Assembly: GCA_041579295.1 (NCBI GenBank)
Contig: JBFGGA010000001.1
Coordinates: forward strand, 2,339-66,338
DNA from: Myxococcota bacterium
GTDB lineage: Bacteria > Myxococcota_A > UBA9160 > SMWR01
Direction of reading: 5' to 3'
Length of the DNA: 64,000 bases
Both the position numbers and the translations under genes were made by a program. Shown piece by piece: positions 5,622-31,137 of the stretch (its first letter is position 1; each line of letters begins with the position of its first letter). The notes beneath the pieces are model-generated. The model did no database searches. It was not told where the DNA came from and was given only the letters and a program-made list of their open reading frames with translations.

Positions 5622-5894
5622 CTAAATGCCCATGTCGCTGAGCGCGTCCGCCAGGCGACCGATGGTCTCCGTGATCTTCGGGTGGGATTTCTCGAATCTC
5701 TCGAGCGTGTCGGTCAGGCGATCGCGCAGCGAGCCCGACAGCTCCCGCTCGTGGTCGGGATCGAGCGCCTCCAGGATCTCCTGCGCCGCGCCGCGCAGCT
5801 CCGCGCGCAGCGCCTCGTCGAGATCGTCCGGGTCCTCGATCGCCTCGCGCAGCTCGTCGAGGATCTCGCTCAGTGACGGTTCGGGATCCGACAT
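5622..5894 (-). CDS. Small acidic helical protein (DUF4404-like)
   Basis: MSDPEPSLSEILDELREAIEDPDDLDEALRAELRGAAQEILEAL...ERFEKSHPKITETIGRLADALSDMGI. The FE.SHP....l..l...Ls..GI ending recalls DUF4404 (from memory). Confidence 0.55.
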   Translation of the reverse strand: MSDPEPSLSEILDELREAIEDPDDLDEALRAELRGAAQEILEALDPDHERELSGSLRDRLTDTLERFEKSHPKITETIGRLADALSDMGI

Positions 5895-5917
5895 CTCTCC
5901 CCTTCTCCCCATTCAGC

Positions 5918-6955
5918 CTAGACGTTGAATCGAAAGTGAACCACGTCGCCGTCTCGGATCAGGTAATCCTTGCCCTCGACGCGCGCGACCCCGGCCTCGC
6001 GGCACTTGGCCTCGCTGCCGTGCGCGATCAGGTCCCTCCAATCGATGACCTCGGCGCGGATGAACCCGCGCTCGATGTCCGAGTGGATCTTACCCGCTGC
6101 GCGCACCGCCCGGGAGCCGCGCGCGACTGGCCAGGCTCGGCACTCGTCGGGCCCGACGGTCAACATCGAGACGAGATCGATCAGCGCGTAGGCCGCGCGA
6201 ATGAAGCGATGGCGCGCCGGCTCTTCGAGGCCGAGCGACCGGACGAACTCGATCTGCTCCTCCGGGGGCATCGAAGCGATGTCCCGCTCGACCTTCGCGG
6301 AGAGCACCACGACCCCGAGCCCCCTTTCGCGCGCACTCGCCTGGATCGCGGGATCGAGATCGGAGCCGATGCTCGCCTCATCGATGTTGACGACCAGGAG
6401 CAGCGGCTTGCGGGTGAGCAGCGCGTAGCCCGCGATCATCCTCGCCTCTTCGTCGCTGAGGTCGAACGATCGCAGCGGCCGCTCCTGTTCGAGGTGCGCC
6501 TGGATGCGCTGCAGGAGATCGAGCTCGCGCGGGTTGCTTCGATCCTTGGTGAGGCGCGCGACGCGGCGCTCCACCAGCTCGAGGTCCGCGAGGATCGTCT
6601 CGGTCTCCAGCTCGGCGATCTCCCGCAGCGGCTCGGGCGCTTCGCCGGCGGCACCCTCGAACGCCCGCACCACCTGACACAGCGCGTCCACCTCGCGCAT
6701 CGCATTGAGGATCTTGCGATCGAGACCCTGCGCACCGCCTCCACCCAGATCCGTGAAGCTGATCTCCGCGTAGGTGACCTTCTTCGGCTCGTAGAGCTCC
6801 GCGAGCGCATCGACGCGCGCGTCGGGCACCTTGACCACCCCGACGTTGGCCTTCTCGCGGCTGGCCGCGTAACCGGTCTCGACGGCGATGCCCGTGAGGG
6901 CGCCGAATACCGTGCTCTTGCCGCTCCCGGGGAGCCCGACGAGTCCGATCTTCAT
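5918..6955 (-). CDS. ychF: Redox-regulated ribosome-binding ATPase YchF
   Basis: [22 protein letters not shown] (P-loop) and the C-terminal TGS-like end [19 protein letters not shown]. Start at the internal ATG (codon 32 of the track ORF). Confidence 0.95.
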
Positions 6956-20155: not shown

Positions 20156-21070
20156 CTATTGGTTGCTGAGCGCGCTCAGCATCATGTAGGCGCCGGGTGC
20201 GATGAAGATCACGAGCAGCGCGGTGAAGATCATCGTGCTCGGAAGGATCAGCTTGAGGGTGGCCTTCTGGGCGCGCTCCTCGGCGCGCTGCATGCGGACG
20301 ACGCGCATCGAATCGGCGTGCACGCGGAGGGCATTCGCGAGGCTCGTCCCGAAACGCTCGGTCTGAACCAGAAGCGCCACGAGCGAGCTGATGTCCGAAA
20401 CTCCGGTTCGATCGGCCAGCGCCCGCAAGGCCTCGGTGGTGCTCTTGCCGGCGCGCGTCTCCTCGACCACCAGCGAGAACTCCTTCGCGATGATCGGGCA
20501 CTTGGATGCGAATTCGTCCGAGACCTGCGCGAGGCTCTGATTGATCCCGAAGCCGGCTTCGACGCAGACGACCATCAGATCCAGCGCGTCGGGGAGCGCT
20601 CGAACGAGCTCGCGCTGACGCGATTTGATTCGGCTGTCCAGGGCGATGCTGGGAAAGACGTAGAAGATCGCAGACAACACGATCAGCATCCCTAACTGAA
20701 CCACAGAGGGCAGAGCCCAGAAGCCCGGCAGCAACGCGACGATCGCCGGACCGCCGATCGCGAGCGTGGGCCGGACCCCATAGAAGATCATCGGAGCCGA
20801 GGGTCGCCGGTAGCCCGCGCGAACCAGGCGAGACCGGAGGCGCGAGGCGTCCGCACCCTCTCGCCCGCGTCCGATCCGGGCGAGGAGCCCCGACCAACCC
20901 TTCTCCTGGCCGTGCATGAGGGACCGGCCCGCAAACTCGGTGGGTCGCTGCTTCGGGCCGAGGTGCGCGAGCCGGCGGCCGATGGCGCGGGGCCCGAGCA
21001 TCGCGCGGATCGCGAGCACCAGCATGATGACAGAACCGAAGACGAGCGCAGGAATCGCAAAATCCACCAT
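20156..21070 (-). CDS. tadC: Tad pilus inner-membrane platform protein TadC (T2SS-F family)
   Basis: 304 aa: N-terminal TM, a cytoplasmic helical T2SSF domain (LPDALDLMVVCVEAGFGINQSL), and C-terminal TM helices. Confidence 0.85.
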   Translation of the reverse strand: MVDFAIPALVFGSVIMLVLAIRAMLGPRAIGRRLAHLGPKQRPTEFAGRSLMHGQEKGWSGLLARIGRGREGADASRLRSRLVRAGYRRPSAPMIFYGVRPTLAIGGPAIVALLPGFWALPSVVQLGMLIVLSAIFYVFPSIALDSRIKSRQRELVRALPDALDLMVVCVEAGFGINQSLAQVSDEFASKCPIIAKEFSLVVEETRAGKSTTEALRALADRTGVSDISSLVALLVQTERFGTSLANALRVHADSMRVVRMQRAEERAQKATLKLILPSTMIFTALLVIFIAPGAYMMLSALSNQ

Positions 21071-21079
21071 CTCGACCTC

Positions 21080-22015
21080 TCAGGCTTCCACGTCTGCAAT
21101 ACGCAGCGCCATGAAGTAAGCCAGCCCGTCGAGCGCAAAGGCGCTCGCCAGCGTGAAGTGCCCCCAACGGTGCTCGAAGAGCGGGCCGATGTAATCGGGT
21201 GCGACCATCCAGACGAGACAGATGATGGCCGGCAGCCACAGCGCGAGGAAGGTTGCGGCTCCACGCCCTTGCGCGGTGAGCGCGCGTACGCGCCCCTTGA
21301 ACTGCGAGCGCTCGCGGAGGAGCGTACTGAGCCGATCGAGGAGCTCCGCGAGGTTGCCGCCGGTCTGGCGTTGGATCAGCACCGCGGTGGTCAGATACGG
21401 GAGGTTCTCGTTGTCGATCCGACGCATCAGATTGCCGAGTGCATCGCGCAGCTCCAGGCCGAGCCGCACCTCTTCCGCGACGACGCCGAACTCCGTCGCG
21501 ATCGGATCGGCGAGCTCCTCGCCCACCATCTGGAAACCCGCAACCAACGAGTGTCCGCTGCGCATCGAACGCGTGACGAGCTCCAGCGCGCTCGCGAGCT
21601 GCGCGTCGAAGGCGCGCATGCGCTTTCTCGCGCGCGAGCGGGCCCAGAGCAGTGGGAGAAGGCCCGTGACGACCGCGGGCGCGGCTCGAAACGAATCCTG
21701 CGTCAGCACGAAGACGCCCAGGAAGCCGATCGTCGCAAACGCCGCCGAGACGGCGAGGAAATGGCGGACACCCATCAGGCTGCCTGCCCGGTAGAGCAGC
21801 AACTCGAGCTCGAGCAGCCTGCGGATGTGCGAGCTTCCGCGGCGCCGCAGAATCGACTCGCCATTGCTGATTTCGACGCTCCCGACGCGCGACGCCAGGT
21901 TGCTGAGCCGGCTCTTCACGCGGGCCGGATCCCTGCGCCGGCCGAAGAGCTCGAAGATCCCTTCGAGCGCGAGAAGCGCCCCTACGAAGACGAATACGAA
22001 GACCATGAATTGCAT
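21080..22015 (-). CDS. tadB: Tad pilus inner-membrane platform protein TadB (T2SS-F family)
   Basis: ATG 22015 verified (MQFMVFVFVFVGALLALEG). T2SSF domain (LASALELVTRSMRSGHSLVAGF) and two C-terminal TM helices. Confidence 0.85.
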   Translation of the reverse strand: MQFMVFVFVFVGALLALEGIFELFGRRRDPARVKSRLSNLASRVGSVEISNGESILRRRGSSHIRRLLELELLLYRAGSLMGVRHFLAVSAAFATIGFLGVFVLTQDSFRAAPAVVTGLLPLLWARSRARKRMRAFDAQLASALELVTRSMRSGHSLVAGFQMVGEELADPIATEFGVVAEEVRLGLELRDALGNLMRRIDNENLPYLTTAVLIQRQTGGNLAELLDRLSTLLRERSQFKGRVRALTAQGRGAATFLALWLPAIICLVWMVAPDYIGPLFEHRWGHFTLASAFALDGLAYFMALRIADVEA

Positions 22016-22024
22016 TTGCGATCC

Positions 22025-23173
22025 CTAGTTCACGATGACGGGGTAATCGGCCGAGATGCTGCCGGCGATCGACCCGCCCGGACCAAATCCGGTGGTGTCA
22101 CAGCGCGGATCCGTCGAGCAGATGAAGTTTCCCTTGATGAGCTTGTCCGGCGTGACGATGATCTCGCGGATGTCCATGCACAGGAAGCCCACGATGTACT
22201 GTCGATCGCCGCTTGCGCACTGATCGCCGGGATTCTGGCACTCGATGATCGGGAGCGTGACGACCCAAGAGTCCGCGACGCCGTCGCCGTTCGTGTCGCT
22301 TCCCTCGGCATCGAAGCGGTCCTTGATGTCCTGGACGACCGGGGTCTTGGTTCCGTTGTCGATGTAGATCGGCTCGTCACCGATCGTGCCCGAGTTGCCG
22401 TCCTGGACGATCTGCGTCATGTCCGGCACGCTCACCGAGGGGCTGTCGCTGTCGAAGGCCGTCCAGCAGGCGTTCTGCTCAGGCGTCGAGAAGAACTCGA
22501 GGCAGCTCACCGTCTCGCCCGTGGAAAGCGGACACGGATTCGGAATGCTGTTGTTGACGAACTGGCAGTAGTTCTCCGAGCACGTGGCGCCCGCCCGGTT
22601 TCCCGACACCGCGCAGCAATCGATCGCGATCGGTAGATCAGCAGTGCCGGGGCCGCCGCTTCCCGCGAAGCCCCATTCGGCAACCGCGTCGGTATTCACG
22701 TTGATCGAGCCCACGCCCAGGGCGCGTCCCAGAATCGTGTCGATCGGCCCGTTCGCGGTGGCGTCGCGGCGCGCCACGACGCGAACCGCGCGCACGACGT
22801 TGGGGTCGGTGTTGCCCGGCAGCGCCGTGAAGGCCTGCGCGGCCATGTCCCAGCTCCCGACCTCGACGTCCGCCGCAGCGATCGTGAGATTCATTCCGAG
22901 CGCCTCGTGCTCGGCCCCGTACGTCGCCGCAGCGGTGCGGGCGCTCCCCTCGTCCACCGTCTGGAAGTCGGGCGAGAAGAGATTTCCGACGCCCGCGAGC
23001 GCGGCCGAGTCGGCAGCCGCCTGCAGCTGGCTCTTCGCCTGCCACGCGCGTCCGGTCTCGGTCGACCACGCCGCGAAGCCCACCAGAGCTGCGAGCGCGA
23101 TCGTCACGAAGACCAGGACCGAACCCTTTTCACGCCCGTTCTCGATTGTGCTCGGTCTTCGTCGGTCCTTCAT
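22025..23173 (-). CDS. tadG: TadG-like pseudopilin/pilus-associated protein with Cys-rich C-terminal domain
   Basis: MKDRRRPSTIENGREKGSVLVFVTIALAALVGFAAWSTETGRAWQAKSQLQAAADSAALAG matches the Tad_N/TadG N-terminal pattern. The C-terminal 200 aa contain about 12 Cys. Confidence 0.75.
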   Translation of the reverse strand: MKDRRRPSTIENGREKGSVLVFVTIALAALVGFAAWSTETGRAWQAKSQLQAAADSAALAGVGNLFSPDFQTVDEGSARTAAATYGAEHEALGMNLTIAAADVEVGSWDMAAQAFTALPGNTDPNVVRAVRVVARRDATANGPIDTILGRALGVGSINVNTDAVAEWGFAGSGGPGTADLPIAIDCCAVSGNRAGATCSENYCQFVNNSIPNPCPLSTGETVSCLEFFSTPEQNACWTAFDSDSPSVSVPDMTQIVQDGNSGTIGDEPIYIDNGTKTPVVQDIKDRFDAEGSDTNGDGVADSWVVTLPIIECQNPGDQCASGDRQYIVGFLCMDIREIIVTPDKLIKGNFICSTDPRCDTTGFGPGGSIAGSISADYPVIVN

Positions 23174-23248
23174 CGCGATTCCCAAATGTGATTCGATCCG
23201 CTTGCGGTTCCCATGCGACCGGAGCCGGCGTGAACGCCGGCTCTCCGA

Positions 23249-24070
23249 TCAGAACTTCTTGACCTCCACCTCGGTCCCGCGAATGATCTTCACCCGGTTG
23301 CTGCGGGGAGCCGACGCCACGACCTGCTTCGCGGTCGGCTTCGTGGAGGCGATTCGACCTTCGAGCACGTCCGCGACTCCGATGCTCCGGGTCGCGACTT
23401 CGGCGTCGTCGCCCGGCGAGCGCAGCGCGAGCTGGAGCCGCCCTTCGTGAGCTGCGTAGATCAGGTGCTCGGCCTGCTGGGGGGTCACCTCGAGCGTCAC
23501 GACGTTGACGAGCTCCGGCTCGCCGTTCTTGACCTCTTCGAGCTTTTGGTCGACTGCGAGCACGCGAACGTCCTGCAGAATGACCTTGGAGAACGGAATC
23601 GCGCGCTCCAGATCCACGCGGCGAATGGTTGCCATCACGTCCACGCGAGAGCCGGGTACCACGAAGCCCGCCACGCCGATCACGTTGTCGACCTTGACCG
23701 ACACTGCCCGGAAGTCGTCGCTGATCACGGCGCCGAGCCCGCCGGCCGCGCCGGTCTGGTACAGCGCTGCCTCGAGGACGGCCTCGCCCTGCGCGAGCGG
23801 CCGTCGCGTGATGCGATTCTCTACCTTCTCGATCGAGCGCAGCGCGCCCATCGGAACGTGCTCGCTCGGCCAATCCACCAGCTTGAGCTGCGCGCGCGTG
23901 AGGCTCGACGCGACGGGCACGTCCGACCGCACCACCACCACGGGCGTCGTCTTCACCGCGCTAACGCTGGCCTCGGCCGGCACGGCACCGAACTTCGTCG
24001 TGATCCAGGCCGCACCGAGGCCCATGATCACTGCCAAGCCTAGAAAAATCAGTCCACGTCGATTCTGCAT
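23249..24070 (-). CDS. cpaB: Flp pilus assembly protein CpaB/RcpC
   Basis: MQNRRGLIFLGLAVIMGLGAAWITTKF is an N-terminal anchor. A SAF-like region and an RcpC beta-domain follow (VVTLEVTPQQAEHLIYAAHEGRLQLALR). Confidence 0.85.
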   Translation of the reverse strand: MQNRRGLIFLGLAVIMGLGAAWITTKFGAVPAEASVSAVKTTPVVVVRSDVPVASSLTRAQLKLVDWPSEHVPMGALRSIEKVENRITRRPLAQGEAVLEAALYQTGAAGGLGAVISDDFRAVSVKVDNVIGVAGFVVPGSRVDVMATIRRVDLERAIPFSKVILQDVRVLAVDQKLEEVKNGEPELVNVVTLEVTPQQAEHLIYAAHEGRLQLALRSPGDDAEVATRSIGVADVLEGRIASTKPTAKQVVASAPRSNRVKIIRGTEVEVKKF

Positions 24071-25876: not shown

Positions 25877-26269
25877 TCAGGCTCCGCTTGCTTCGTCCAG
25901 GCGGAGCGCGACCGAATTCATGCAGTAGCGCGTGCCGGTGGGAGGCGGGCCGTCCGGAAAGACGTGCCCCAGGTGAGCGTCGCAGCGGGCGCAGGTCACC
26001 TCGACGCGCGGGGTCCCGAGGCTCCGATCCTCGCGCGTGGACACGCTCGCCTGCGCGATCGGCTGCGTGAAGCTCGGCCACCCGGTGCCCGAATCGTACT
26101 TCGATTGCGAGTCGAACAGCGGATTTCCGCAACACACGCAGCGGTAGACGCCCGCGCTCTTGCAGTCGTGGTACGCGCCCGTGAACGGCCGCTCCGTGCC
26201 CTGGCGCCGGCAGACCGCGTACTGCTCGGGGGTCAACGCGGCCCGCCATTCGGCGTCGCTCTTGACCAC
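25877..26269 (-). CDS. msrB: Peptide-methionine (R)-S-oxide reductase MsrB
   Basis: [42 protein letters not shown] and TGTRYCMNS match MsrB, including both CxxC zinc pairs. Start placed at GTG 26269 (VVKSDAEW...). The track ORF extends to 26521 through Gly/Arg low-complexity sequence. Confidence 0.9.
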
Positions 26270-26640
26270 CCGCTCTCCAGCCGGTCGTCCGCCCCCCGCG
26301 CCGCTCCCGCTGGCCGACCTTCCGCCGGCTCGCCCATCGCTCGCGTCGTCCGTCACCCCGCCCTCCGACTTCGCCCCGCGCCCCTCTCGCGATCCGAGGG
26401 ACCCGTCACGCGCTCGACCGCCTGGGCGCGCGCGCCGTCGACCGCGCCGGATCGGAGCATAACACGCGGAAACACCCCCAGGGGGTGGCCCCCGTCGGCG
26501 CCGACGACCCGCGCCGGGCAAATTCGATACGCTCTGTGATGAATTGAATACCGCGCCTCCGCGCGGCGTCCAATTCTCGGAATTGTGCCAACCACTAGGG
26601 GAAGATCAGGAGGAACCAGACGGTCGATGGTCCCACAGCC

Positions 26641-26694
26641 GGGTGATCCCTTCCATCATGGATGGAACGGGTGTGGATGGAACGGGTGATCCCT
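26641..26694 (+). promoter_or_regulatory. Cluster of repeated half-sites upstream of the 26756 gene (candidate operator)
   Basis: TTCCATC-ATG-GATGGAA inverted repeat at 26651-26667. TGGATGGAACGGGTG is repeated in perfect tandem at 26659-26688, and GGGTGATCCCT flanks both sides (26641, 26685). Confidence 0.35.
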
Positions 26695-26755
26695 CGAATA
26701 CCCCTGCATTGGGAGTCCCAGGGTCGGGGGCGCTCTCGCGAAGGAGGCTGAAACG

Positions 26756-28108
26756 ATGCGCATCGCCTTGCGTTCTACGTTGATCGTCGCGATCGCCAGT
26801 GCCGCGGGCGCAGCCCACGCGCTGCAAAGCCCGGACTGGGACGTACTCGAAGAAACCGCCCAGCATTCCCTCGAATACGCCAGAACGGACGAGCCCGCGC
26901 CCTGGGTGAACCCCGACACGGGCGTCGAAGGCACCTTCACGCCGGTCGCGACCCACGAGGGGCCGGAGGGTCAGGTCTGCCGCGAATACGCGGTCGACGC
27001 GATCATCGACGGCCGCGAGGAGGTCGTCTACGGGACCGCGTGCCGCCTACCGGACGGCACCTGGGTCGAGGCGAACGCCGAGTACACCGAAAGCGAACCG
27101 CCGAAAGAAGACTGCGAGGTGCACTCGGGAACGGACTGGCGCTGGATCATCCCGAACTTCACCATTGCGGGCGGATACTGTTCGCGGAGTTTCTGCGTAG
27201 GCGGTAGCTTCGGCTCGTTCTATCCGAGCTGGTACTACCCCTGGCGGATTCGCTTCGCCTATTGGGACTACGGCTACTGGGGCCACCACTACCGTTACTA
27301 TCCGTACTACACCTACTACCCCCGCCACCACAGCTACCACTCGCACACCCACTACCGCCACCATCGCCGCGCCTACCACGACCGGCACTTCAGCCACCAT
27401 CGACACAAGCACCGGAGCCACCATTACAGTGAGCACAAGGATCGGCATCGAGGTGGCCACTCGAAGCGGGTAGACAAGCGCAGCCGCAGGTCCGATCACG
27501 ACCGCCCCACCAGAGAGCGATCGATCCATCGCCCCTCTCAAGGCGAGCGCTACGCGAGCCATCGAACCGATCGACGCCAAGAGCGCGGAGAACGCCGCGC
27601 GAGCGAGCGATCGGACGACCGTCGAGTGGACGCGCTGCGCTACGCGAGCCACCGATCCGATCGACGCCACGAGCGCGGAGAACGCCGCGCAAGCGAGAGA
27701 TCGAGCGACCGCCGCTCGAAAGGCGAGCGCTACGCGAGCCACCGATCCGATCGGCGCCACGAGCGCGGAGAACGCCGCGCGAGCGAGCGAGCGAGCGACC
27801 GCCGCTCGAAAGGCGAGCGCTACGCGAGCCACCGATCCGATCGACGCCACGAGCGCGGAGAACGCCGCGCGAGCGAGCGATCGAGCGACCGCCGCTCGAA
27901 AGGCGAGCGCTACGCGAGCCACCGATCCGATCGACGCCACGAGCGCGGAGAACGCCGCGCGAGCGAGCGATCGCGCGACCGCCGCTCGCATGGCGAGCGC
28001 TACGCGAGCCACCGCTCGGGCGGCGACCGGTCGCACGGTCGACACGCTTCGACGGGCCGCTCCGGACGCGGGGGCAAAGGGGGCAAGCGCTCCGCGTCCC
28101 GGAACTGA
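26756..28108 (+). CDS. Secreted protein: surface-antigen-like N-domain, Tyr/His/Trp-rich core, Arg/Ser/Glu/Asp-rich 30-aa tandem-repeat tail
   Basis: GAAGGAGG sits 7 nt before the ATG. Signal peptide MRIALRSTLIVAIASAAGAAHA. PWVNPDTGVEGTFTP...GQVCREYAVDAII...GTACRLPDGTWV resembles the 17-kDa surface-antigen type-2 domain (from memory). The frame stays open through YYPYYTYYPRHHSYHSHTHYRHH and 5+ copies of GERYASHRSDRRHERGERRASERSSDRRSK. Confidence 0.7.
   Translation: MRIALRSTLIVAIASAAGAAHALQSPDWDVLEETAQHSLEYARTDEPAPWVNPDTGVEGTFTPVATHEGPEGQVCREYAVDAIIDGREEVVYGTACRLPDGTWVEANAEYTESEPPKEDCEVHSGTDWRWIIPNFTIAGGYCSRSFCVGGSFGSFYPSWYYPWRIRFAYWDYGYWGHHYRYYPYYTYYPRHHSYHSHTHYRHHRRAYHDRHFSHHRHKHRSHHYSEHKDRHRGGHSKRVDKRSRRSDHDRPTRERSIHRPSQGERYASHRTDRRQERGERRASERSDDRRVDALRYASHRSDRRHERGERRASERSSDRRSKGERYASHRSDRRHERGERRASERASDRRSKGERYASHRSDRRHERGERRASERSSDRRSKGERYASHRSDRRHERGERRASERSRDRRSHGERYASHRSGGDRSHGRHASTGRSGRGGKGGKRSASRN
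27541..28020 (+). repeat. 90-bp in-frame tandem repeat array (about 5.3 copies)
   Basis: CGCTACGCGAGCC recurs at 27548, 27638, 27728, 27818, 27908 and 27998. The central copies differ by only a few bases. Confidence 0.9.
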
Positions 28109-28221
28109 GCTCGCCATCCGGCCCGCCCGGCGCGTCGGGCAGCGAAACGACGACCCCGCTCGACCCGGGGGCTACAGTCGGAAGACGGTCGCGCGGCTCG
28201 GAGGGCGGCCGCGGAGGGTCG

Positions 28222-30432
28222 ATGCGGGGCACCGGCGGGGAGCGCTCCAGAGGGCCAACGCTGCGCCGCGGCATGGCCGTCGGCATCGCCCTTTGCGCAA
28301 CACTACTGGCCGTCGCGATCGCGTACCGCAGACCGCTCGCGGAATACTTCCTGGTGCAAGCGCTCCGAGCACGCGGCCTCGGAGACGCCAAGCTCGAGGT
28401 TCGCCGCTTCGACCCCGGGCGCATCGAGTTCGCCAGCTTCAGCAGCGGAGACGGCGACGGAATCGACATCGCGCGCATCGAGGTGCGCTTGTCGGTGAGG
28501 GGCCTTCTCGCGAGCCGACTCGACGCGCTGAAGATCTCGGGCGTGCGACTGCGCGGCACGCTCGACGACGACGGGCTTCGCTTCGGCGCCGTCGACCGCC
28601 TGCTGGAAGGTCGCGCCGGGCGAGCGGACGCGAGCGCACCCGCGGCGATTCCCGCGTCGGAGCTCGAGGTGGACGACGCCTTGCTCGAGATCGTCACCGA
28701 GCGCGGCCCGCTGCGCGCCAGTCTGGAGCTGCGGTTAGCCGAGTTCGCGCCCGGACGGCTCGAGGCCGGCGCCGCGTTGCGAGTCGATCACGAGCGCTCG
28801 AGCCTCGACGCCCGTCTGAGTGCGACGGGAAGCGCGAGCACCATGAGCGGCGAATTGACCGTGCAGGCGAGCTCGGGAGGGCGGCTCGGATCGAAGGTTT
28901 CGGCCAAAGCGGTCTCACTGGCCGCAAAGAGCGCCTTCTCGTTCGATGGCGGCAGCATTGCGATCCGGCCGCTCGATTGCGCGGAGATTCACGTCGAAGG
29001 GCTTTCGATCGAGCCGGACTTCTCACTCGCGGCGCCGCTCGCTCTCTGCCTGCGCTCGCGTTCCGAGTCGGGCTTTCGCGTTTCGCAGCGCGGCGCCATC
29101 GAAGCCGATCTCGAGCTGGCGCCCGTGGCCTTCGCGGCCGAGCTTCGACTCGGAGGCGAGCCCCAACGGCTGGCGGGCGAGCTCTCGAGCGTTCGGTTGC
29201 GCACATCCGGGCGGGGCGACGACTTCGAGGCATCCCTCGAAACCGAAGCCGGCCGGCTCGAGCTCGCCGAGCAGGCCGCGAGATTTCGCGACGTCGCATT
29301 GGTGGCGAATGCGCCGCACGCCGCGCAGCCTCCGGCAATCCAGCTGCGAGTGGGCGAAATCTTCGACGATCGAAAGGAGGCGCGCGTTGCGAGCCTCACG
29401 CTCGATGCGAGCGCCGAGCAGCGCGACGAGCGCATCGCGTTTGCGATGGAGCTCGCGACCTCGGATCGCAATCTCTCGATCGAGATCGACGGCGAGCACG
29501 CACCCGACCGGGCAACGGGCCACGCCCACCTACACCTGCGCCCGATCGCATTCCAGCCCGATGGGCTGCAGCCCGCCGCGCTCTTCCCGATCCTCTCGAA
29601 GCTCGTGACCGAAGCGGCCGGCGCGATCGAGATGAAGGGATCCGTCGGCTGGGACGGCGATCGGAGGTGGGGGCGCGCCGAGGTCGCCGTGATCGATTTC
29701 AGCGCCTCGACTGCAGTGGCGAAATTCGAGCGCGTCAACTCGGTCATCGAGCTGGACGAGAGCGGCGCGACACCACCAGATCAGATCCTCTCGATCGGTC
29801 GCCTGGACTTCGGCCTCGAGCTCACGGACGGACTGATCCGATTTCGTCTGGAGCCCGGCGGGGCCGTCGCAGTCGAGACGGCCGCGTGGAAGTTCGCGGG
29901 CGGCGAGCTCGCCACGAGCGGCGCAGTCGATCTGCGGGCGAAGAGCAGAGGCACGTCGCTGCGCGTGACGGGCGTCGATCTGACCCGACTCATCGAACTC
30001 GTGAACCTGGACGGGCTGAGTGGATCGGGTCGGCTGGACGGCGAGATTCCGATCGCGCTGGGCGACGATCTCGAGATCCGCAACGCCGTGCTGCGCTCCT
30101 CGGACGAGGGCGGCATCATCCGCTACCGCCCGAATCGGGGCGCGGCGAACATGGCCGCGGCGGATGATCGATTTGCCACGACGCTCGCGGTGTTGGAGAA
30201 CTTCCACTACGACAAGCTCGAGCTCGGTATCGATGGCCCCGCGCAAGGAGAGGTCGCGATCCAGATCCGTCTGGCCGGATCCAACCCGGACTACCGAAAT
30301 GGACATCCCATCGATTTCAACCTCTCCGTGGAGTCGCGGCTCTCCGACCTCCTGCGGACGGGCATCCGCATCTACAGGATCCCCGCAGAGATCGAGAAGC
30401 GGCTCGCGGCGTTCGCGGAGCGGATGCGATGA
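28222..30432 (+). CDS. ydbH: YdbH-like AsmA-family intermembrane lipid-transport protein
   Basis: GGAGGG precedes ATG 28222. N-terminal TM anchor MAVGIALCATLLAVAIAYRRPL, a long beta-rich body, and a C-terminal YDKLELGIDGPAQGEVAIQIRLAGSNPDYRNGHPIDFNLSVE typical of YdbH. It is followed by ynbE and ydbL. Confidence 0.8.
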   Translation: MRGTGGERSRGPTLRRGMAVGIALCATLLAVAIAYRRPLAEYFLVQALRARGLGDAKLEVRRFDPGRIEFASFSSGDGDGIDIARIEVRLSVRGLLASRLDALKISGVRLRGTLDDDGLRFGAVDRLLEGRAGRADASAPAAIPASELEVDDALLEIVTERGPLRASLELRLAEFAPGRLEAGAALRVDHERSSLDARLSATGSASTMSGELTVQASSGGRLGSKVSAKAVSLAAKSAFSFDGGSIAIRPLDCAEIHVEGLSIEPDFSLAAPLALCLRSRSESGFRVSQRGAIEADLELAPVAFAAELRLGGEPQRLAGELSSVRLRTSGRGDDFEASLETEAGRLELAEQAARFRDVALVANAPHAAQPPAIQLRVGEIFDDRKEARVASLTLDASAEQRDERIAFAMELATSDRNLSIEIDGEHAPDRATGHAHLHLRPIAFQPDGLQPAALFPILSKLVTEAAGAIEMKGSVGWDGDRRWGRAEVAVIDFSASTAVAKFERVNSVIELDESGATPPDQILSIGRLDFGLELTDGLIRFRLEPGGAVAVETAAWKFAGGELATSGAVDLRAKSRGTSLRVTGVDLTRLIELVNLDGLSGSGRLDGEIPIALGDDLEIRNAVLRSSDEGGIIRYRPNRGAANMAAADDRFATTLAVLENFHYDKLELGIDGPAQGEVAIQIRLAGSNPDYRNGHPIDFNLSVESRLSDLLRTGIRIYRIPAEIEKRLAAFAERMR

Positions 30433-30556
30433 ATATCCGCGCGAGCGTCCGCGTCCATCCTTGGGAAGCGGCGAGAGCGCCCGATGCCCGCAGCTGGACG
30501 CGAATCGGGCGGCCCGTTAGGCTCGCGCGGTAGTGGAGATTTCGAGGGGGTCGACG

Positions 30557-30754
30557 ATGACGGCTCGATTGCATCCTGCGCTCTTGGCTGCCTGGTGGGT
30601 CGCGAGCCTCGCGGCCTGCACGCCCAAGGTCCAAGTCGAACCGCCCAAAGAGCCGATTACGATCAACCTCAACGTCAAGATCGAACACGAGATCAGGGTG
30701 AAGGTCGACCAGGATCTCGAGAATCTCTTCGAAGAGGACGACCAGCTCTTCTAG
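30557..30754 (+). CDS. ynbE: YnbE-family lipoprotein
   Basis: MTARLHPALLAAWWVASLAACTPKVQVEPPKEPITINLNVKIEHEIRVKVDQDLENLFEEDDQLF closely parallels E. coli YnbE (CTP...PKEPITINMNVKIEHEI). GAGGGGG precedes the ATG. Confidence 0.85.
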   Translation: MTARLHPALLAAWWVASLAACTPKVQVEPPKEPITINLNVKIEHEIRVKVDQDLENLFEEDDQLF

Positions 30755-30777
30755 GCGACGATGAAGGGGACAAGACC

Positions 30778-31137
30778 ATGGCAAGACACGCCCTTTGTGC
30801 AAAGCGGATCGGATCGTCCATGCGCTGGCTGGCCACCCTCGTCCTGTTCGGTGCGCTGGCCGCGAACGCGGACATCCTCGACGACGCCAAGGCGGCCGGC
30901 CAGATCGGCGAGTGTGTGGACGGCTACGTGCATCTGGTAGATCCGAACGCGCCCGACGCCGTGAAGGCCCTCGTCAAAGACGTGAACGACAAGCGCAGGG
31001 AGAAGTACGCGAGCATCGCGAAGACGCGCGGGACCTCGCTCGAGAACGTGGCTGCGCTCGCGGGCGCCAAGCTCGTGGAGCGCGCACCGGCGGGACAGTA
31101 CGTGAAGGACAGCACCGGCAAGTGGCGCAGGAAGTGA
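30778..31137 (+). CDS. ydbL: YdbL-like periplasmic protein (DUF1318)
   Basis: Signal peptide, then LDDAKAAGQIGECVDGYV...VNDKRREKYASIAKTRGTSLENVAALAGAKLVERAPAGQYVKDSTGKWRRK, the DUF1318 pattern. It is the third gene of the ydbH operon. Confidence 0.8.
   Translation: MARHALCAKRIGSSMRWLATLVLFGALAANADILDDAKAAGQIGECVDGYVHLVDPNAPDAVKALVKDVNDKRREKYASIAKTRGTSLENVAALAGAKLVERAPAGQYVKDSTGKWRRK

What the first reader, a model, noticed from the sequence alone, without database searches (positions are those of the whole stretch)
26756..28108. Secreted protein with a Tyr/His/Trp-rich core and an Arg/Ser/Glu/Asp-rich 30-aa tandem-repeat tail
A strong RBS (GAAGGAGG) and a clean signal peptide lead into a small Cys-containing domain that resembles bacterial surface-antigen domains. 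The frame then runs without a stop through about 90 residues of almost pure Y/H/W/R/P (YYPWRIRFAYWDYGYWGHHYRYYPYYTYYPRHHSYHSHTHYRHHRRAYHDRHFSHHRHKHRSHHY). After that come 5+ copies of GERYASHRSDRRHERGERRASERSSDRRSK and a Gly/Lys/Arg end. I do not recognise an exported bacterial protein combining a His/Tyr-rich block with an RS/RD/RE-type charged repeat, a composition more reminiscent of eukaryotic SR-like or histidine-rich proteins. Possible roles, all speculative, are metal (Ni/Zn/Cu) sequestration, binding of polyanions such as eDNA, polyphosphate, LPS or EPS, or matrix scaffolding.
Basis: partly seen in the sequence, partly recalled or inferred. Interest (0 to 1): 0.6.

Follow-up and report, generated by a model that had tools for sequence, protein, structure and literature searches.

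The report
Exported surface-antigen protein with sticky basic tail
This is a real, exported bacterial envelope protein whose small, already-named "17 kDa surface antigen" domain carries a long, fast-evolving tail rich in tyrosine, histidine, arginine and serine. Tailed versions turn out to be common in some sediment bacteria, but nobody has studied them.

Summary
ORF 26756..28108 (+, 450 aa) has a conserved RBS and start, a Sec-type signal peptide and a Pfam 17kDa_Anti_2 domain. After the domain come a Gly/Cys/aromatic motif, a block that is 33% His, and 5.6 copies of a 90-bp repeat. About 29 homologues from Myxococcota MAGs keep the frame open to a conserved C-terminal end, so the whole frame is translated.

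Among 183 family proteins from the two searches seeded with the window's own family, 87 had the same plan and 66 had the canonical plan. The tailed plan is a signal peptide, an N-terminal domain, a Tyr/Trp/Pro-rich segment and a basic Arg-rich tail with lineage-specific repeats. Carriers include cultured Geoalkalibacter, where the protein is annotated only as "surface antigen". Canonical members are ~155-aa lipoproteins with a glycine zipper and no tail. Tail and zipper are almost mutually exclusive, and tailed proteins have markedly more acidic heads.

Best reading (inferred): the disordered aromatic and polycationic tail replaces the lipid/zipper anchor. It would hold the domain on anionic envelope material and possibly drive self-association. 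Metal binding by the His block is a live rival. The AF2 long helix is not supported by the charge pattern or the orthologues.

Verdict: a new variant of a known kind, of moderate interest.

The parts
26740..26747 (+). Ribosome-binding site GAAGGAGG, 8 nt upstream of the ATG
   Evidence: Read from the sequence. The GGAGG core and the ATG are invariant in the alignment with L083, L002, L003 and L001.
26756..26821 (+). Sec-type (SPase I) signal peptide, aa 1-22, predicted cleavage AHA|LQ. There is no lipobox Cys.
   Evidence: It is the only segment with KD hydropathy above 1.0. The AHAL(E/Q) site is conserved across the family. No twin-arginine motif is present (read from the sequence).
26822..27070 (+). 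Globular 17kDa_Anti_2 domain (aa 23-105): one helix plus a 5-stranded antiparallel sheet, with an invariant Cys75/Cys96 pair. It is strongly acidic.
   Evidence: Pfam PF16998, 41.1 bits. Domain-only AF2 model has pLDDT 87 and pTM 0.72. No solved-structure neighbour was found. Net charge of aa 23-125 is -19.
27131..27280 (+). Subfamily-specific Gly/Cys/aromatic motif (aa 126-175): DWxWIIPxxxIxGGYCSxSFCVGGxFGSxYPSWYYPWxIxFxYWDYG, with a conserved Cys142/Cys147 pair
   Evidence: Nearly invariant columns in A1. KD maximum is 0.83, too low for a TM helix. AF2 pLDDT is about 30. Only the YYP-W-YYP-x-I-x-F-S core aligns with distant tailed proteins (hhalign probability 63%, 15 columns).
27281..27460 (+). 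His/Tyr/Arg-rich block (aa 176-235): 33% His, 18% Tyr, 17% Arg
   Evidence: Composition. The block is predicted disordered. His content in relatives varies between 2% and 16%.
27461..27514 (+). Conserved basic pre-repeat segment (..HSKRxxSRSRRSDxDRPT..)
   Evidence: It aligns across the close family.
27515..28014 (+). Tandem repeat array: 90-bp (30-aa) period, 5.6 copies, built from a 15-aa unit x-E-R-x-A-S-x-R-S-x-x-R-R-S-x. It is Arg/Ser/Glu/Asp-rich and net positive.
   Evidence: TRF score 809, plus a 45-bp sub-period. Units are in frame and differ by 2-17 nt. The motif has strict 15/30 spacing in 17 homologues. A 99.86%-identical genome has 3 units fewer.
28015..28108 (+). Gly/Lys/Arg-rich C-terminal end and stop codon. 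The family consensus is ..RSGRGRSGGKxGARSSNRH*.
   Evidence: The C-terminus is conserved after repeats of variable length in more than 20 homologues. This shows the frame is read through to the end.
27047..28117 (-). Antisense 356-aa Ala/Val-rich ORF, judged a non-coding shadow of the sense gene
   Evidence: GC3 is 0.66 against 0.80 for the sense frame. The antisense frame is open in all relatives simply because the sense codons are GC-rich, and it never spans the whole gene. No domain and no conserved ends were found.

Best explanation
The gene encodes a Sec-exported cell-envelope protein of the 17kDa_Anti_2 (RT0821/Lpp0805 'surface antigen') family. It belongs to a widespread but undescribed 'tailed' subclass.

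Canonical family members are ~155-aa outer-membrane lipoproteins: lipobox, then glycine zipper, then domain, ending 3-7 residues after the domain. In the tailed subclass that N-terminal anchor is missing. Instead the domain is followed by a disordered extension made of an aromatic Tyr/Trp/Pro(/Gly/Cys) segment, a His/Tyr-rich block and a polycationic Arg/Ser-rich repeat array.

Proposed mechanism (inferred): the tail is a lipid-free anchoring and cohesion module. Arg (and protonated His) would bind anionic envelope polymers or surfaces, such as LPS or phospholipid head groups, peptidoglycan, exopolysaccharide, eDNA or mineral surfaces. Tyr and Trp would add interfacial and cation-pi contacts. 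The unusually acidic head would either shield the tail in cis or bind tails of neighbouring molecules, giving head-to-tail self-association.

The repeat array grows and shrinks by slippage or unequal recombination. Selection keeps its charge, its composition and a 15-aa ER-x-AS-x-RS-xx-RR-S motif.

Shown: the gene is real, it carries export signals, it is a family member, the architecture splits into two types, the tail is predicted disordered, the repeats behave dynamically, and head and tail charges co-vary.
Inferred: localisation, ligands and physiological role.
For: Real, fully translated gene:
- GC3 is 0.75-0.85 in all segments.
- RBS and ATG are conserved.
- 29 homologues keep the frame through repeats of variable length to a conserved C-terminus.

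Exported:
- The signal peptide is the only hydrophobic segment, and there is no TM-grade stretch.
- Two conserved Cys pairs are present.
- In L031 a His/Arg/Asp-rich block sits directly after a signal peptide.

Family membership: PF16998 scores above the gathering cut-off.

Two architectures:
- Of 80 species-level genomes holding the domain, about 70 encode proteins that end 3-7 aa after it. Eight, all Desulfuromonadales, Deferrisomatales or 'delta' lineages, carry 123-345 extra residues.
- Among the 183 proteins from the window-seeded searches, 87 are tailed and 66 canonical.
- A profile of distant tailed proteins returns a top 120 that is entirely 230-440 aa long.

Anchor swap: a glycine zipper is present in 5 of 90 tailed proteins and 53 of 72 untailed ones.

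Head-tail charge co-variation:
- Domain net charge has median -1 in canonical members, -7 in tailed ones and -13 in the window's close family (Mann-Whitney p about 1e-24).
- Within tailed proteins, domain charge anticorrelates with tail charge (rho -0.40, p 6e-9).

Tail properties:
- Net charge is +37 over aa 236-450, with 31% Arg and 17% Ser.
- Composition and positive charge are conserved while the sequences diverge.
- AF2 pLDDT is about 30 for aa 108-278.
- The 15-aa motif shows strict spacing.

Repeat dynamics: units differ by 2-17 nt, and a 99.86%-identical genome has exactly 3 units fewer.

No operon partners: neighbourhoods differ in every lineage examined.
Against: - No experiment bears on localisation or ligand.
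- The literature search found nothing on the domain's function.
- The domain has no solved structural neighbour.
- The anchor/tail exclusivity and the charge statistics are not corrected for phylogeny. One ancestral swap could explain much of the pattern, and a few hybrids carry both zipper and tail (P0181, P0079, P0130).
- The sample of proteins is biased towards relatives of the query profile.
- Exporting a tail of net charge about +37 through Sec is energetically awkward.
- AF2 predicts the window's repeats as one long helix with pLDDT 80-90, which sits uneasily with a fully disordered tail.
- The very high His content of this member suggests metal chemistry that the anchor model does not need.
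Confidence: 0.42

Rival explanations
1. Periplasmic metal-binding or metal-buffering protein. The His/Tyr block (20 His in 60 residues, many HH/HxH pairs) chelates Ni, Zn, Cu or Co. The Arg-rich repeats serve only as a solubilising or spacer region.
For: - aa 176-235 are 33% His.
- Relatives also have His-rich stretches: GHGG/HSGGHH in P0029 and P0045, HHHHH in P0054, and a His/Arg/Asp block in L031.
- The carriers are sediment or metal-reducing lineages such as Geoalkalibacter, Desulfuromonas and Deferrisomatales.
- His-rich periplasmic metal proteins are an established class, for example CopI (PMC13308877, seen).
Against: - His is the least conserved feature. It ranges from 2% to 16% across relatives, while Arg (18-30%) and aromatics (19-35%) are constant.
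- Pooled tails are 14.5% Arg, 11.8% Ser, 11.4% Gly, 8.9% Tyr and only 7.1% His.
- No metal-homeostasis genes are linked in any neighbourhood.
- The model explains neither the zipper/tail exclusivity nor the acidic heads.
Confidence: 0.2
2. Self-assembling adhesive or matrix material. The protein leaves the cell or coats it. Tyr/Trp 'stickers' plus Arg, together with the acidic head, drive coacervation or cross-linking into a cement. This would be analogous to mussel foot proteins, plant extensins or the Bacillus spore-coat protein CotG.
For: - The tails have sticker-spacer composition: Tyr-rich then Arg-rich, and some relatives are RGG/FG-like (P0050, P0054).
- The protein has a block-polyampholyte design: acidic head, basic tail, with co-varying charges.
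- Each repeat contains RRAS/RxxS sites resembling basophilic kinase sites. CotG is a basic tandem-repeat protein that is polyphosphorylated by CotH (PMC7821199).
- In the close family a Tad (tight-adherence) pilus operon lies about 3-4 kb upstream.
Against: - No secretion signal beyond Sec and no linked secretion system, kinase or oxidase. The Tad operon is on the other strand, separated by msrB, and is absent near distant relatives.
- All resemblances are compositional, not homologous.
- Phase separation and cross-linking are untested.
Confidence: 0.15
3. Type I membrane protein. After signal-peptide cleavage the domain faces the periplasm, the Gly/Cys/aromatic segment (aa ~130-157) spans the inner membrane, and the basic tail stays in the cytoplasm (positive-inside rule), where it could bind nucleic acid or polyphosphate.
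For: - The C-terminal part has net charge +37, following the only other mildly hydrophobic stretch (KD 0.68-0.83).
- SR-like and RGG-like tails are nucleic-acid binders in eukaryotes (background knowledge).
Against: - KD of 0.83 is far below TM-helix values. The segment holds Arg, Ser, Asn, Pro and a conserved CxxxxC pair.
- Distant tailed relatives lack this segment entirely yet keep the tail.
- In L031 a His/Arg/Asp-rich block follows the signal peptide directly.
- AF2 predicts no helix there.
Confidence: 0.06
4. Rigid spacer. The repeat array forms a ~110-residue single alpha-helix (about 17 nm) that sets a distance within the periplasm, like ER/K single alpha-helices or TolA domain II.
For: AF2 models aa 275-386 as one continuous helix with pLDDT 80-90. 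The unit length of 15 residues is close to four helical turns.
Against: - The MSA is essentially empty over the repeats, so the prediction is in effect single-sequence.
- Same-sign i,i+4 pairs (26) outnumber opposite-sign pairs (14), and net charge per residue is +0.14. This is unlike ER/K helices.
- The segment is 17% Ser and 6% Gly.
- Orthologous repeats carry Pro every 15 residues (P0007, P0008, P0014).
- Distant tails are Gly/Pro/Gln-rich.
Confidence: 0.07
5. Artefact. Translation ends after the N-domain because of a frameshift, or the Ala/Val-rich antisense ORF 27047..28117 is the true gene.
For: - Several long ORFs overlap in this 69%-GC region.
- The antisense frame is open for 258-372 codons in all relatives.
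- Some database homologues are frameshifted in the tail (P0005, P0022, P0028).
Against: - The sense frame is open end to end in window, L001, L002, L003 and L083, with GC3 of 0.67-0.81.
- The C-terminal motif is conserved after repeats of variable length.
- The 15-aa motif is in phase.
- Head and tail charges co-vary.
- The antisense ORF has lower GC3 (0.66) and no conserved termini.
Confidence: 0.02

Closest known systems
Canonical 17kDa_Anti_2 / RT0821-Lpp0805 family 'surface antigen' lipoproteins (Pfam PF16998; COG4520-type)
   Same: Homologous globular domain with the invariant W..NPD..G, CRE(Y/F) and ACRxPDGxW motifs and the Cys pair. Both are exported envelope proteins.
   Different: Canonical members have a lipobox Cys plus a GxxxG glycine zipper N-terminal to the domain and stop 3-7 residues after it. 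The window protein has a plain SPase-I signal, no zipper, a far more acidic domain (about -13 against -1) and a 345-residue low-complexity extension.
Tailed 17kDa_Anti_2 proteins of Desulfuromonadales and Deferrisomatales (e.g. Geoalkalibacter ferrihydriticus P0194, G. halelectricus P0190, Desulfuromonas sp. CSMB_57 L005, Pelobacter UBA6093 L009)
   Same: Same overall plan: signal peptide, N-terminal domain, Tyr/Trp/Pro-rich segment with a shared YYP..YYP..I.FSF core, His-rich stretch, Arg-rich tail with its own tandem repeats, and a basic C-terminus.
   Different: They lack the IAISGGYCSSSFCVGG Cys motif. Their tails are Gly/Gln/Pro/Asp-Arg types (RGG/FG-like, QR-rich) rather than the ER-AS-RS-RR-S 15-mer. 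Identity is only about 40% and is confined to the domain.
SlyB/YfgH-type glycine-zipper outer-membrane lipoproteins
   Same: The canonical relatives of this protein carry the same kind of lipobox plus GxxxG zipper that SlyB and YfgH use to sit in the outer membrane and stabilise it under stress (bioRxiv 10.64898/2025.12.22.696046). This is a plausible functional neighbourhood of envelope stabilisation.
   Different: The window protein has no zipper, no lipobox and no Pfam hit to glycine-zipper families. SlyB and YfgH were not shown here to contain the 17kDa_Anti_2 domain.
Eukaryotic arginine-enriched mixed-charge domains / SR-like regions
   Same: Arg alternates with Asp, Glu or Ser at i+1 and i+2. 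The fraction of charged residues is high (0.57) with net positive charge. Such domains drive cohesion and condensation (bioRxiv 10.1101/771592).
   Different: There is no homology. This protein is bacterial and exported rather than nuclear. It has a strict 15-aa motif and no RRM or other RNA-binding domain.
Bacillus subtilis spore-coat protein CotG
   Same: A basic protein built of short tandem repeats rich in Ser, Arg/Lys, His and Tyr, acting as structural or permeability-controlling surface-layer material (PMC7821199, PMC9765600).
   Different: CotG is Lys-rich, has no signal peptide and no 17kDa_Anti_2 domain. It works with the adjacent kinase CotH. No cotH-like gene is near this gene.

Membership tests
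Pfam PF16998 17kDa_Anti_2 (17 kDa outer membrane surface antigen) | HMM score above the curated gathering threshold | tested here: met
   41.1 bits against a 26.6 cut-off, E 1.8e-10, aa 33-103 matching profile positions 39-108 of 116. All 29 close homologues carry the precomputed PF16998 annotation.
Pfam PF16998 17kDa_Anti_2 (17 kDa outer membrane surface antigen) | Conserved sequence signature W-x-NPD..G...P, G-x-x-CRE(Y/F) and ACRxPDGxW, with the Cys pair | tested here: met
   W28, C53, R54, G71, A73, C74 and G79 (domain numbering) are invariant in a 93-sequence alignment spanning canonical and tailed members.
Pfam PF16998 17kDa_Anti_2 (17 kDa outer membrane surface antigen) | Typical (not defining) architecture: lipobox, then glycine zipper, then a C-terminal domain, about 155 aa in total | tested here: not met
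   The window protein has an AHA|LQ signal with no Cys and no GxxxGxxxG. The domain is N-terminal and 345 residues follow it.
NCBIfam 'RT0821/Lpp0805 family surface protein' | Hit to an NCBIfam model above its cut-off | tested here: inconclusive
   The NCBIfam release 20 scan returned no relevant model, only a spurious SclB match at E 8. Even so, NCBI names homologues P0023, P0190, P0270 and P0285 with this family name, so that name presumably derives from a rule not in the library searched.
Glycine-zipper OM lipoproteins (SlyB/PCP, Pfam Rick_17kDa_Anti / Gly-zipper families) | Lipobox Cys and GxxxG-repeat 2TM zipper, with a Pfam hit | tested here: not met
   No such Pfam hit even at E <= 10. 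No lipobox or zipper regex match. The Gly-rich aa 138-153 segment has KD <= 0.83.
ER/K charged single alpha-helix (SAH) domains | Dense i to i+4 opposite-charge pairs, near-neutral net charge, few Gly/Ser/Pro | tested here: not met
   i,i+4 pairs: 14 opposite against 26 same-sign. Net charge per residue is +0.14, with 17% Ser and 6% Gly. Orthologous repeats contain Pro. Only the AF2 helix speaks for it.
Eukaryotic SR / Arg-rich mixed-charge domain proteins | Homology or an RRM partner domain with nuclear function. As a compositional class: RS/RD/RE alternation. | tested here: inconclusive
   The compositional criterion is met. There is no homologous domain, and the protein carries a bacterial signal peptide. 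This is convergence in composition, not membership.
CotG-like spore-coat repeat proteins | Linked cotH kinase, spore-former host, no signal peptide | tested here: not met
   No CotH-type gene in the neighbourhoods. A signal peptide is present. The hosts are Myxococcota and Desulfuromonadales MAGs.
Histidine-rich metal-binding proteins (Hpn/HypB-tail/CopI-like; a functional class, not a homologous family) | Demonstrated metal binding by the His cluster | not testable with these tools
   Only composition is known: 33% His over 60 aa, and it is variable in relatives.

The most novel reading that the evidence does not exclude
Tailed 17kDa_Anti_2 proteins are exported 'block polyampholytes': an acidic folded head joined to an aromatic and Arg-rich sticker-spacer tail. 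They would self-associate head-to-tail and, together with envelope polyanions, form a condensate-like or cement-like layer in the periplasm or on the cell surface. That would make them a bacterial envelope counterpart of FUS/RGG-type phase-separating domains, mussel adhesives or extensins. Rapid repeat-number change would tune the properties of the material, and Ser phosphorylation or Tyr cross-linking might tune it further.
Probability: 0.15. Interest if true: 0.8.

Novelty: new variant of a known kind. Interest (0 to 1): 0.5.

Why it matters
If the tail is a lipid-free, polycationic and aromatic anchoring or cohesion module, it would be a previously unrecognised way for Gram-negative bacteria to attach a periplasmic or surface domain to the envelope. 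It would sit alongside lipidation, glycine zippers, OmpA-like domains and LysM domains.

It would also extend 'sticker-and-spacer' low-complexity protein chemistry to the bacterial extracytoplasmic space, where it is barely documented.

The class is abundant in metal-reducing and sediment Desulfuromonadales and in uncultured Myxococcota, so it may bear on cell-mineral or cell-cell adhesion.

In practical terms, the work flags hundreds of database entries labelled only 'surface antigen' as a distinct architecture. It also identifies cultured carriers (Geoalkalibacter spp., Desulfuromonas sp.) in which the idea can be tested.

If the role turns out to be ordinary, such as a metal buffer or a dispensable envelope protein, the finding remains a tidy example of a fast-evolving, composition-constrained tandem repeat.

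Tried and rejected
1. TM-helix / positive-inside topology: hydropathy of aa 130-157 is too low, and the segment is absent from distant tailed relatives.
2. Single alpha-helix reading of the AF2 model: the charge pattern and Pro-containing orthologous repeats argue against it.
4. Operon or neighbour inference: msrB upstream and ydbH-ynbE-ydbL downstream are conserved only among close relatives (ydbH is missing in L001). Distant tailed genes have unrelated neighbours.
5. A PRMT-like methyltransferase 0.9 kb downstream of the Desulfuromonas homologue looked tempting for an Arg-rich protein, but it does not recur.
6. RNA elements and transcription signals: Rfam gave no credible hit in 26300-28400. 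No sigma-70-like promoter or intrinsic terminator was found.
7. Literature: no paper on PF16998, RT0821, Lpp0805 or COG4520 function, and no description of exported bacterial Tyr/His/Arg-rich tails.
8. Within-array codon-position analysis of repeat differences: too few substitutions, spread evenly over codon positions, so it is uninformative about selection.
9. Antisense-ORF conservation as a discriminator: the antisense frame is open in all relatives for compositional reasons, so openness alone does not discriminate.
Full report
**1. Observation**

The ORF 26756..28108 (+, 450 aa) is present exactly as described.
- GAAGGAGG lies at 26740..26747, 8 nt before the ATG.
- The GGAGG core, the ATG and two further 5'-leader blocks are conserved in four relatives.
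- The N-terminal 22 residues are the only strongly hydrophobic stretch (KD 1.0-1.45) and end in AHA|LQ. There is no lipobox Cys and no twin-arginine motif.
- Residues 33-103 match Pfam PF16998, 17kDa_Anti_2, above the gathering threshold (41.1 against 26.6 bits).
- aa 126-175 are Tyr/Trp/Gly/Phe-rich. aa 176-235 are 33% His, 18% Tyr and 17% Arg. aa 236-450 are 31% Arg and 17% Ser with net charge +37.
- TRF reports a 90-bp repeat over 27515..28014 (5.6 copies, 90% matches, score 809) and a 45-bp sub-period. All units are in phase with the ORF.

**2. Is the whole frame translated?**

GC3 is 0.75-0.85 in every segment of the plus frame. The long antisense ORF 27047..28117 has GC3 of 0.66.

A search of 5.8 billion proteins found 29 homologues, all carrying PF16998. 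Their sequences and alignment show the same order of parts:
- signal peptide;
- domain;
- a nearly invariant DWxWIIPxIAISGGYCSSSFCVGGxFGSYYPSWYYPWGISFSYWDYG motif;
- a Tyr/His block;
- Arg/Ser-rich repeats that differ in sequence and number;
- a conserved end, ..SGGKxGARSSNRH.

A conserved C-terminus after a repeat array of variable length can only be kept if the frame is read through. The antisense frame is open in all relatives, but only because the sense codons are GC-rich. It never spans the gene and has no conserved ends. A few database entries (P0005, P0022, P0028) are frameshifted in the tail, most likely through assembly errors in repeats.

**3. Repeat anatomy and dynamics**

The 30-aa unit is a pair of 15-aa units. 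Across 17 close homologues a motif x-E-R-x-A-S-x-R-S-x-x-R-R-S-x recurs with strict 15- or 30-residue spacing. There are 3-9 hits per protein against fewer than 0.1 in composition-preserving shuffles. Positions E2, R3, A5, S6, R8, S9, R12 and R13 are 59-94% conserved. The motif was derived from these data, so the spacing regularity is the independent part of the evidence.

The window's central units differ by only 2-9 nt. A contig that is 99.86% identical over 5.8 kb (L083, encoding P0001) carries exactly three units (270 bp) fewer. This is either real strain-level copy-number change or short-read collapse.

In the close family the tails stay 18-30% Arg and 13-27% Ser, with net charge up to +41 (window), while their sequences diverge.

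**4. Structure**

With the 27-sequence alignment, AF2 gives:
- a moderately confident N-domain;
- pLDDT of about 30 for aa 108-278;
- one long helix for aa 275-386 at pLDDT 80-90.

I do not trust the helix, for four reasons:
- The alignment is nearly empty over the repeats.
- Same-sign i,i+4 pairs (26) outnumber opposite-sign pairs (14).
- The segment has net +0.14 charge per residue, with 17% Ser and 6% Gly.
- Orthologous repeats carry Pro every 15 residues.

Transient or ligand-induced short helices capped by Gly remain possible.

**5. The wider family: the main new result**

A scan of one genome per species found the domain in hundreds of genomes. Only one of them (L003, a 'Deltaproteobacteria' MAG) matched the window protein full length.

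Extracting complete ORFs showed two architectures:
- Type A, about 70 of 80 loci, spread across Alpha-, Beta- and Gammaproteobacteria, Binatia, Myxococcota and others. It consists of a lipobox, a GxxxG glycine zipper and the domain, ending 3-7 residues later.
- Type B, 8 loci, all Desulfuromonadales, Deferrisomatales or 'delta' lineages. It has a plain signal peptide, an N-terminal domain and 123-345 further residues. Those residues form a Tyr/Pro-rich segment followed by an Arg-rich tail that often has its own tandem repeats. Examples are a 27-aa unit repeated 5 times in L004 and a 24-25-aa unit in L009.

An exhaustive profile search of 1.84 billion representatives found 4964 domain-bearing clusters. 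Among the 183 proteins in hand at that point, 87 were tailed and 66 canonical. The sequences show a recurrent plan and basic C-termini such as ..GRR..GGHR and ..NRH. Some tails are RGG/FG-like (P0050, P0054).

A profile of distant tailed proteins retrieved 2303 hits at E <= 1e-20, and the top 120 were all 230-440 aa long. They include proteins from the cultured species Geoalkalibacter ferrihydriticus and G. halelectricus, annotated merely 'Surface antigen' or 'RT0821/Lpp0805 family surface protein'.

Beyond the domain, only a short core (YYP-W-YYP-x-I-x-F-S) aligns between the window's family and distant type-B proteins (hhalign probability 63%, 15 columns). The Cys-containing Gly motif is specific to the window's subfamily. 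That subfamily comes from Myxococcota/Myxococcales MAGs.

**6. Two comparative tests bearing on mechanism**

(a) Anchor swap. A glycine zipper is present in 5 of 90 tailed proteins and in 53 of 72 untailed ones. Many of the 19 untailed proteins that lack one are short fragments.

(b) Head-tail charge co-variation. The 84-residue domain has median net charge -1 in type A, -7 in type B and -13 in the window's family (Mann-Whitney p about 1e-24). Within type B, a more acidic head goes with a more basic tail (Spearman rho -0.40, p 6e-9).

Neither test is phylogeny-corrected, and the sample is biased towards the query. A few hybrids carry both zipper and tail (P0181, P0079, P0130).

**7. Genomic context**

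In the window the gene is flanked as follows:
- upstream, by a divergent msrB (SelR) gene, with a Tad pilus operon beyond it;
- downstream, by ydbH-ynbE-ydbL (AsmA-like phospholipid transport), followed by nfeD and a CoA-transferase on the other strand.

Close relatives share this arrangement, but L001 lacks the ydbH operon. Distant tailed genes sit in unrelated neighbourhoods and look monocistronic. In L085 and L046 a canonical short paralogue is adjacent. No promoter, terminator or Rfam element was detected. Context therefore gives no functional partner.

**8. Interpretation**

Shown:
- a real, full-length gene with export signals;
- membership of the PF16998 family;
- a tailed architecture that is common in some lineages;
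- a tail predicted to be disordered;
- constraint on both composition and motif, alongside rapid repeat turnover;
- loss of the zipper anchor and acidification of the head accompanying the tail.

Inferred: the tail substitutes for the lipid/zipper anchor by binding anionic envelope material through Arg/His electrostatics and Tyr/Trp interfacial or cation-pi contacts. The acidic head either shields the tail or links molecules head-to-tail.

Rivals:
- Metal binding by the His block is plausible for this His-rich member, but His is the least conserved feature.
- A secreted adhesive or matrix material is the most novel reading.
- A cytoplasmic tail after a non-canonical TM segment is unlikely.
- A rigid helical spacer is unlikely.
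- An artefact is very unlikely.

**9. Comparison with what is known, and novelty**

The protein is a member of Pfam 17kDa_Anti_2. It departs from the canonical lipoprotein architecture of that family.

It resembles the following in composition only:
- eukaryotic Arg-rich mixed-charge and SR-like domains (bioRxiv 10.1101/771592);
- B. subtilis CotG (PMC7821199, PMC9765600);
- adhesive Tyr/Arg/His-rich proteins (my own background knowledge, not tested).

Glycine-zipper lipoproteins such as SlyB and YfgH (bioRxiv 10.64898/2025.12.22.696046) are the functional neighbourhood of its canonical relatives, but the window protein lacks their defining zipper.

I found no literature on the domain's function or on the tails.

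Verdict: a new variant of a known kind. It is one member of a sizeable, unstudied subclass with a testable mechanism. Interest 0.5.

Noticed in passing
window 26659..26688: A perfect 15-bp direct repeat (TGGATGGAACGGGTG, two copies) lies 68 bp upstream of the start codon. It is present in the 99.9%-identical L083 but not in L001, L002 or L003. Flanking leader blocks (TGAATACC.., GGTGATCCC.., TTGGGAGTCCCAGGTCGGGGGC.CTCTCGCG) are conserved in all of them. It may be a regulatory site or a recent duplication.
   Followed up: partly
window 28222..31137: A complete ydbH-ynbE-ydbL operon (YdbH-like AsmA-family protein, YnbE-like lipoprotein, DUF1318/YdbL) lies immediately downstream on the same strand, 113 bp after the stop codon with no terminator detected. 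It is present in L002 but absent at the same position in L001.
   Followed up: partly
window ~20900..24070 (and L001, L002, L083): A Tad/Flp pilus assembly cluster (TadG-like, RcpC/CpaB, TadE, prepilin peptidase A24, T2SSF) lies on the minus strand a few kb upstream. Its position is conserved in all close relatives.
   Followed up: no
L031 (Azospirillaceae MAG), ORF 5659..6288: A canonical zipper-plus-domain protein carries an about 80-residue His/Arg/Asp-rich block (DRDDHRGRGHHHGHWRDRDDDDRRHRHRHHH..) directly after its signal peptide. The block is N-terminal rather than C-terminal. This looks like an independent acquisition of a similar low-complexity module by the same domain family.
   Followed up: no
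P0043 (391 aa) and P0046 (583 aa): Multi-copy architectures of the domain. P0043 has three tandem 17kDa_Anti_2 domains. P0046 has two C-terminal copies behind a region that looks like a trypsin-like peptidase, judged by eye only and not scanned.
   Followed up: no
L005 8069..9085 (Desulfuromonas sp. CSMB_57): A protein arginine methyltransferase-like gene (PRMT_C oligomerisation subdomain, E 1.6e-8) lies 0.9 kb downstream of the Arg-rich tailed homologue. It was not seen near other homologues, so it is probably coincidence.
   Followed up: partly
L085 4296..4835 and L046 5818..6330: A canonical short (170-179 aa) 17kDa_Anti_2 paralogue sits next to, or in the same locus as, a tailed paralogue. 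This suggests origin by local duplication and possibly joint function.
   Followed up: partly
window 25877..26521 (-): The msrB (SelR) ORF as listed is 214 aa with an Arg/Gly-rich N-terminal extension. Orthologues are called at 130-143 aa. The real start is therefore probably internal, which would make the divergent intergenic region about 450 bp.
   Followed up: no
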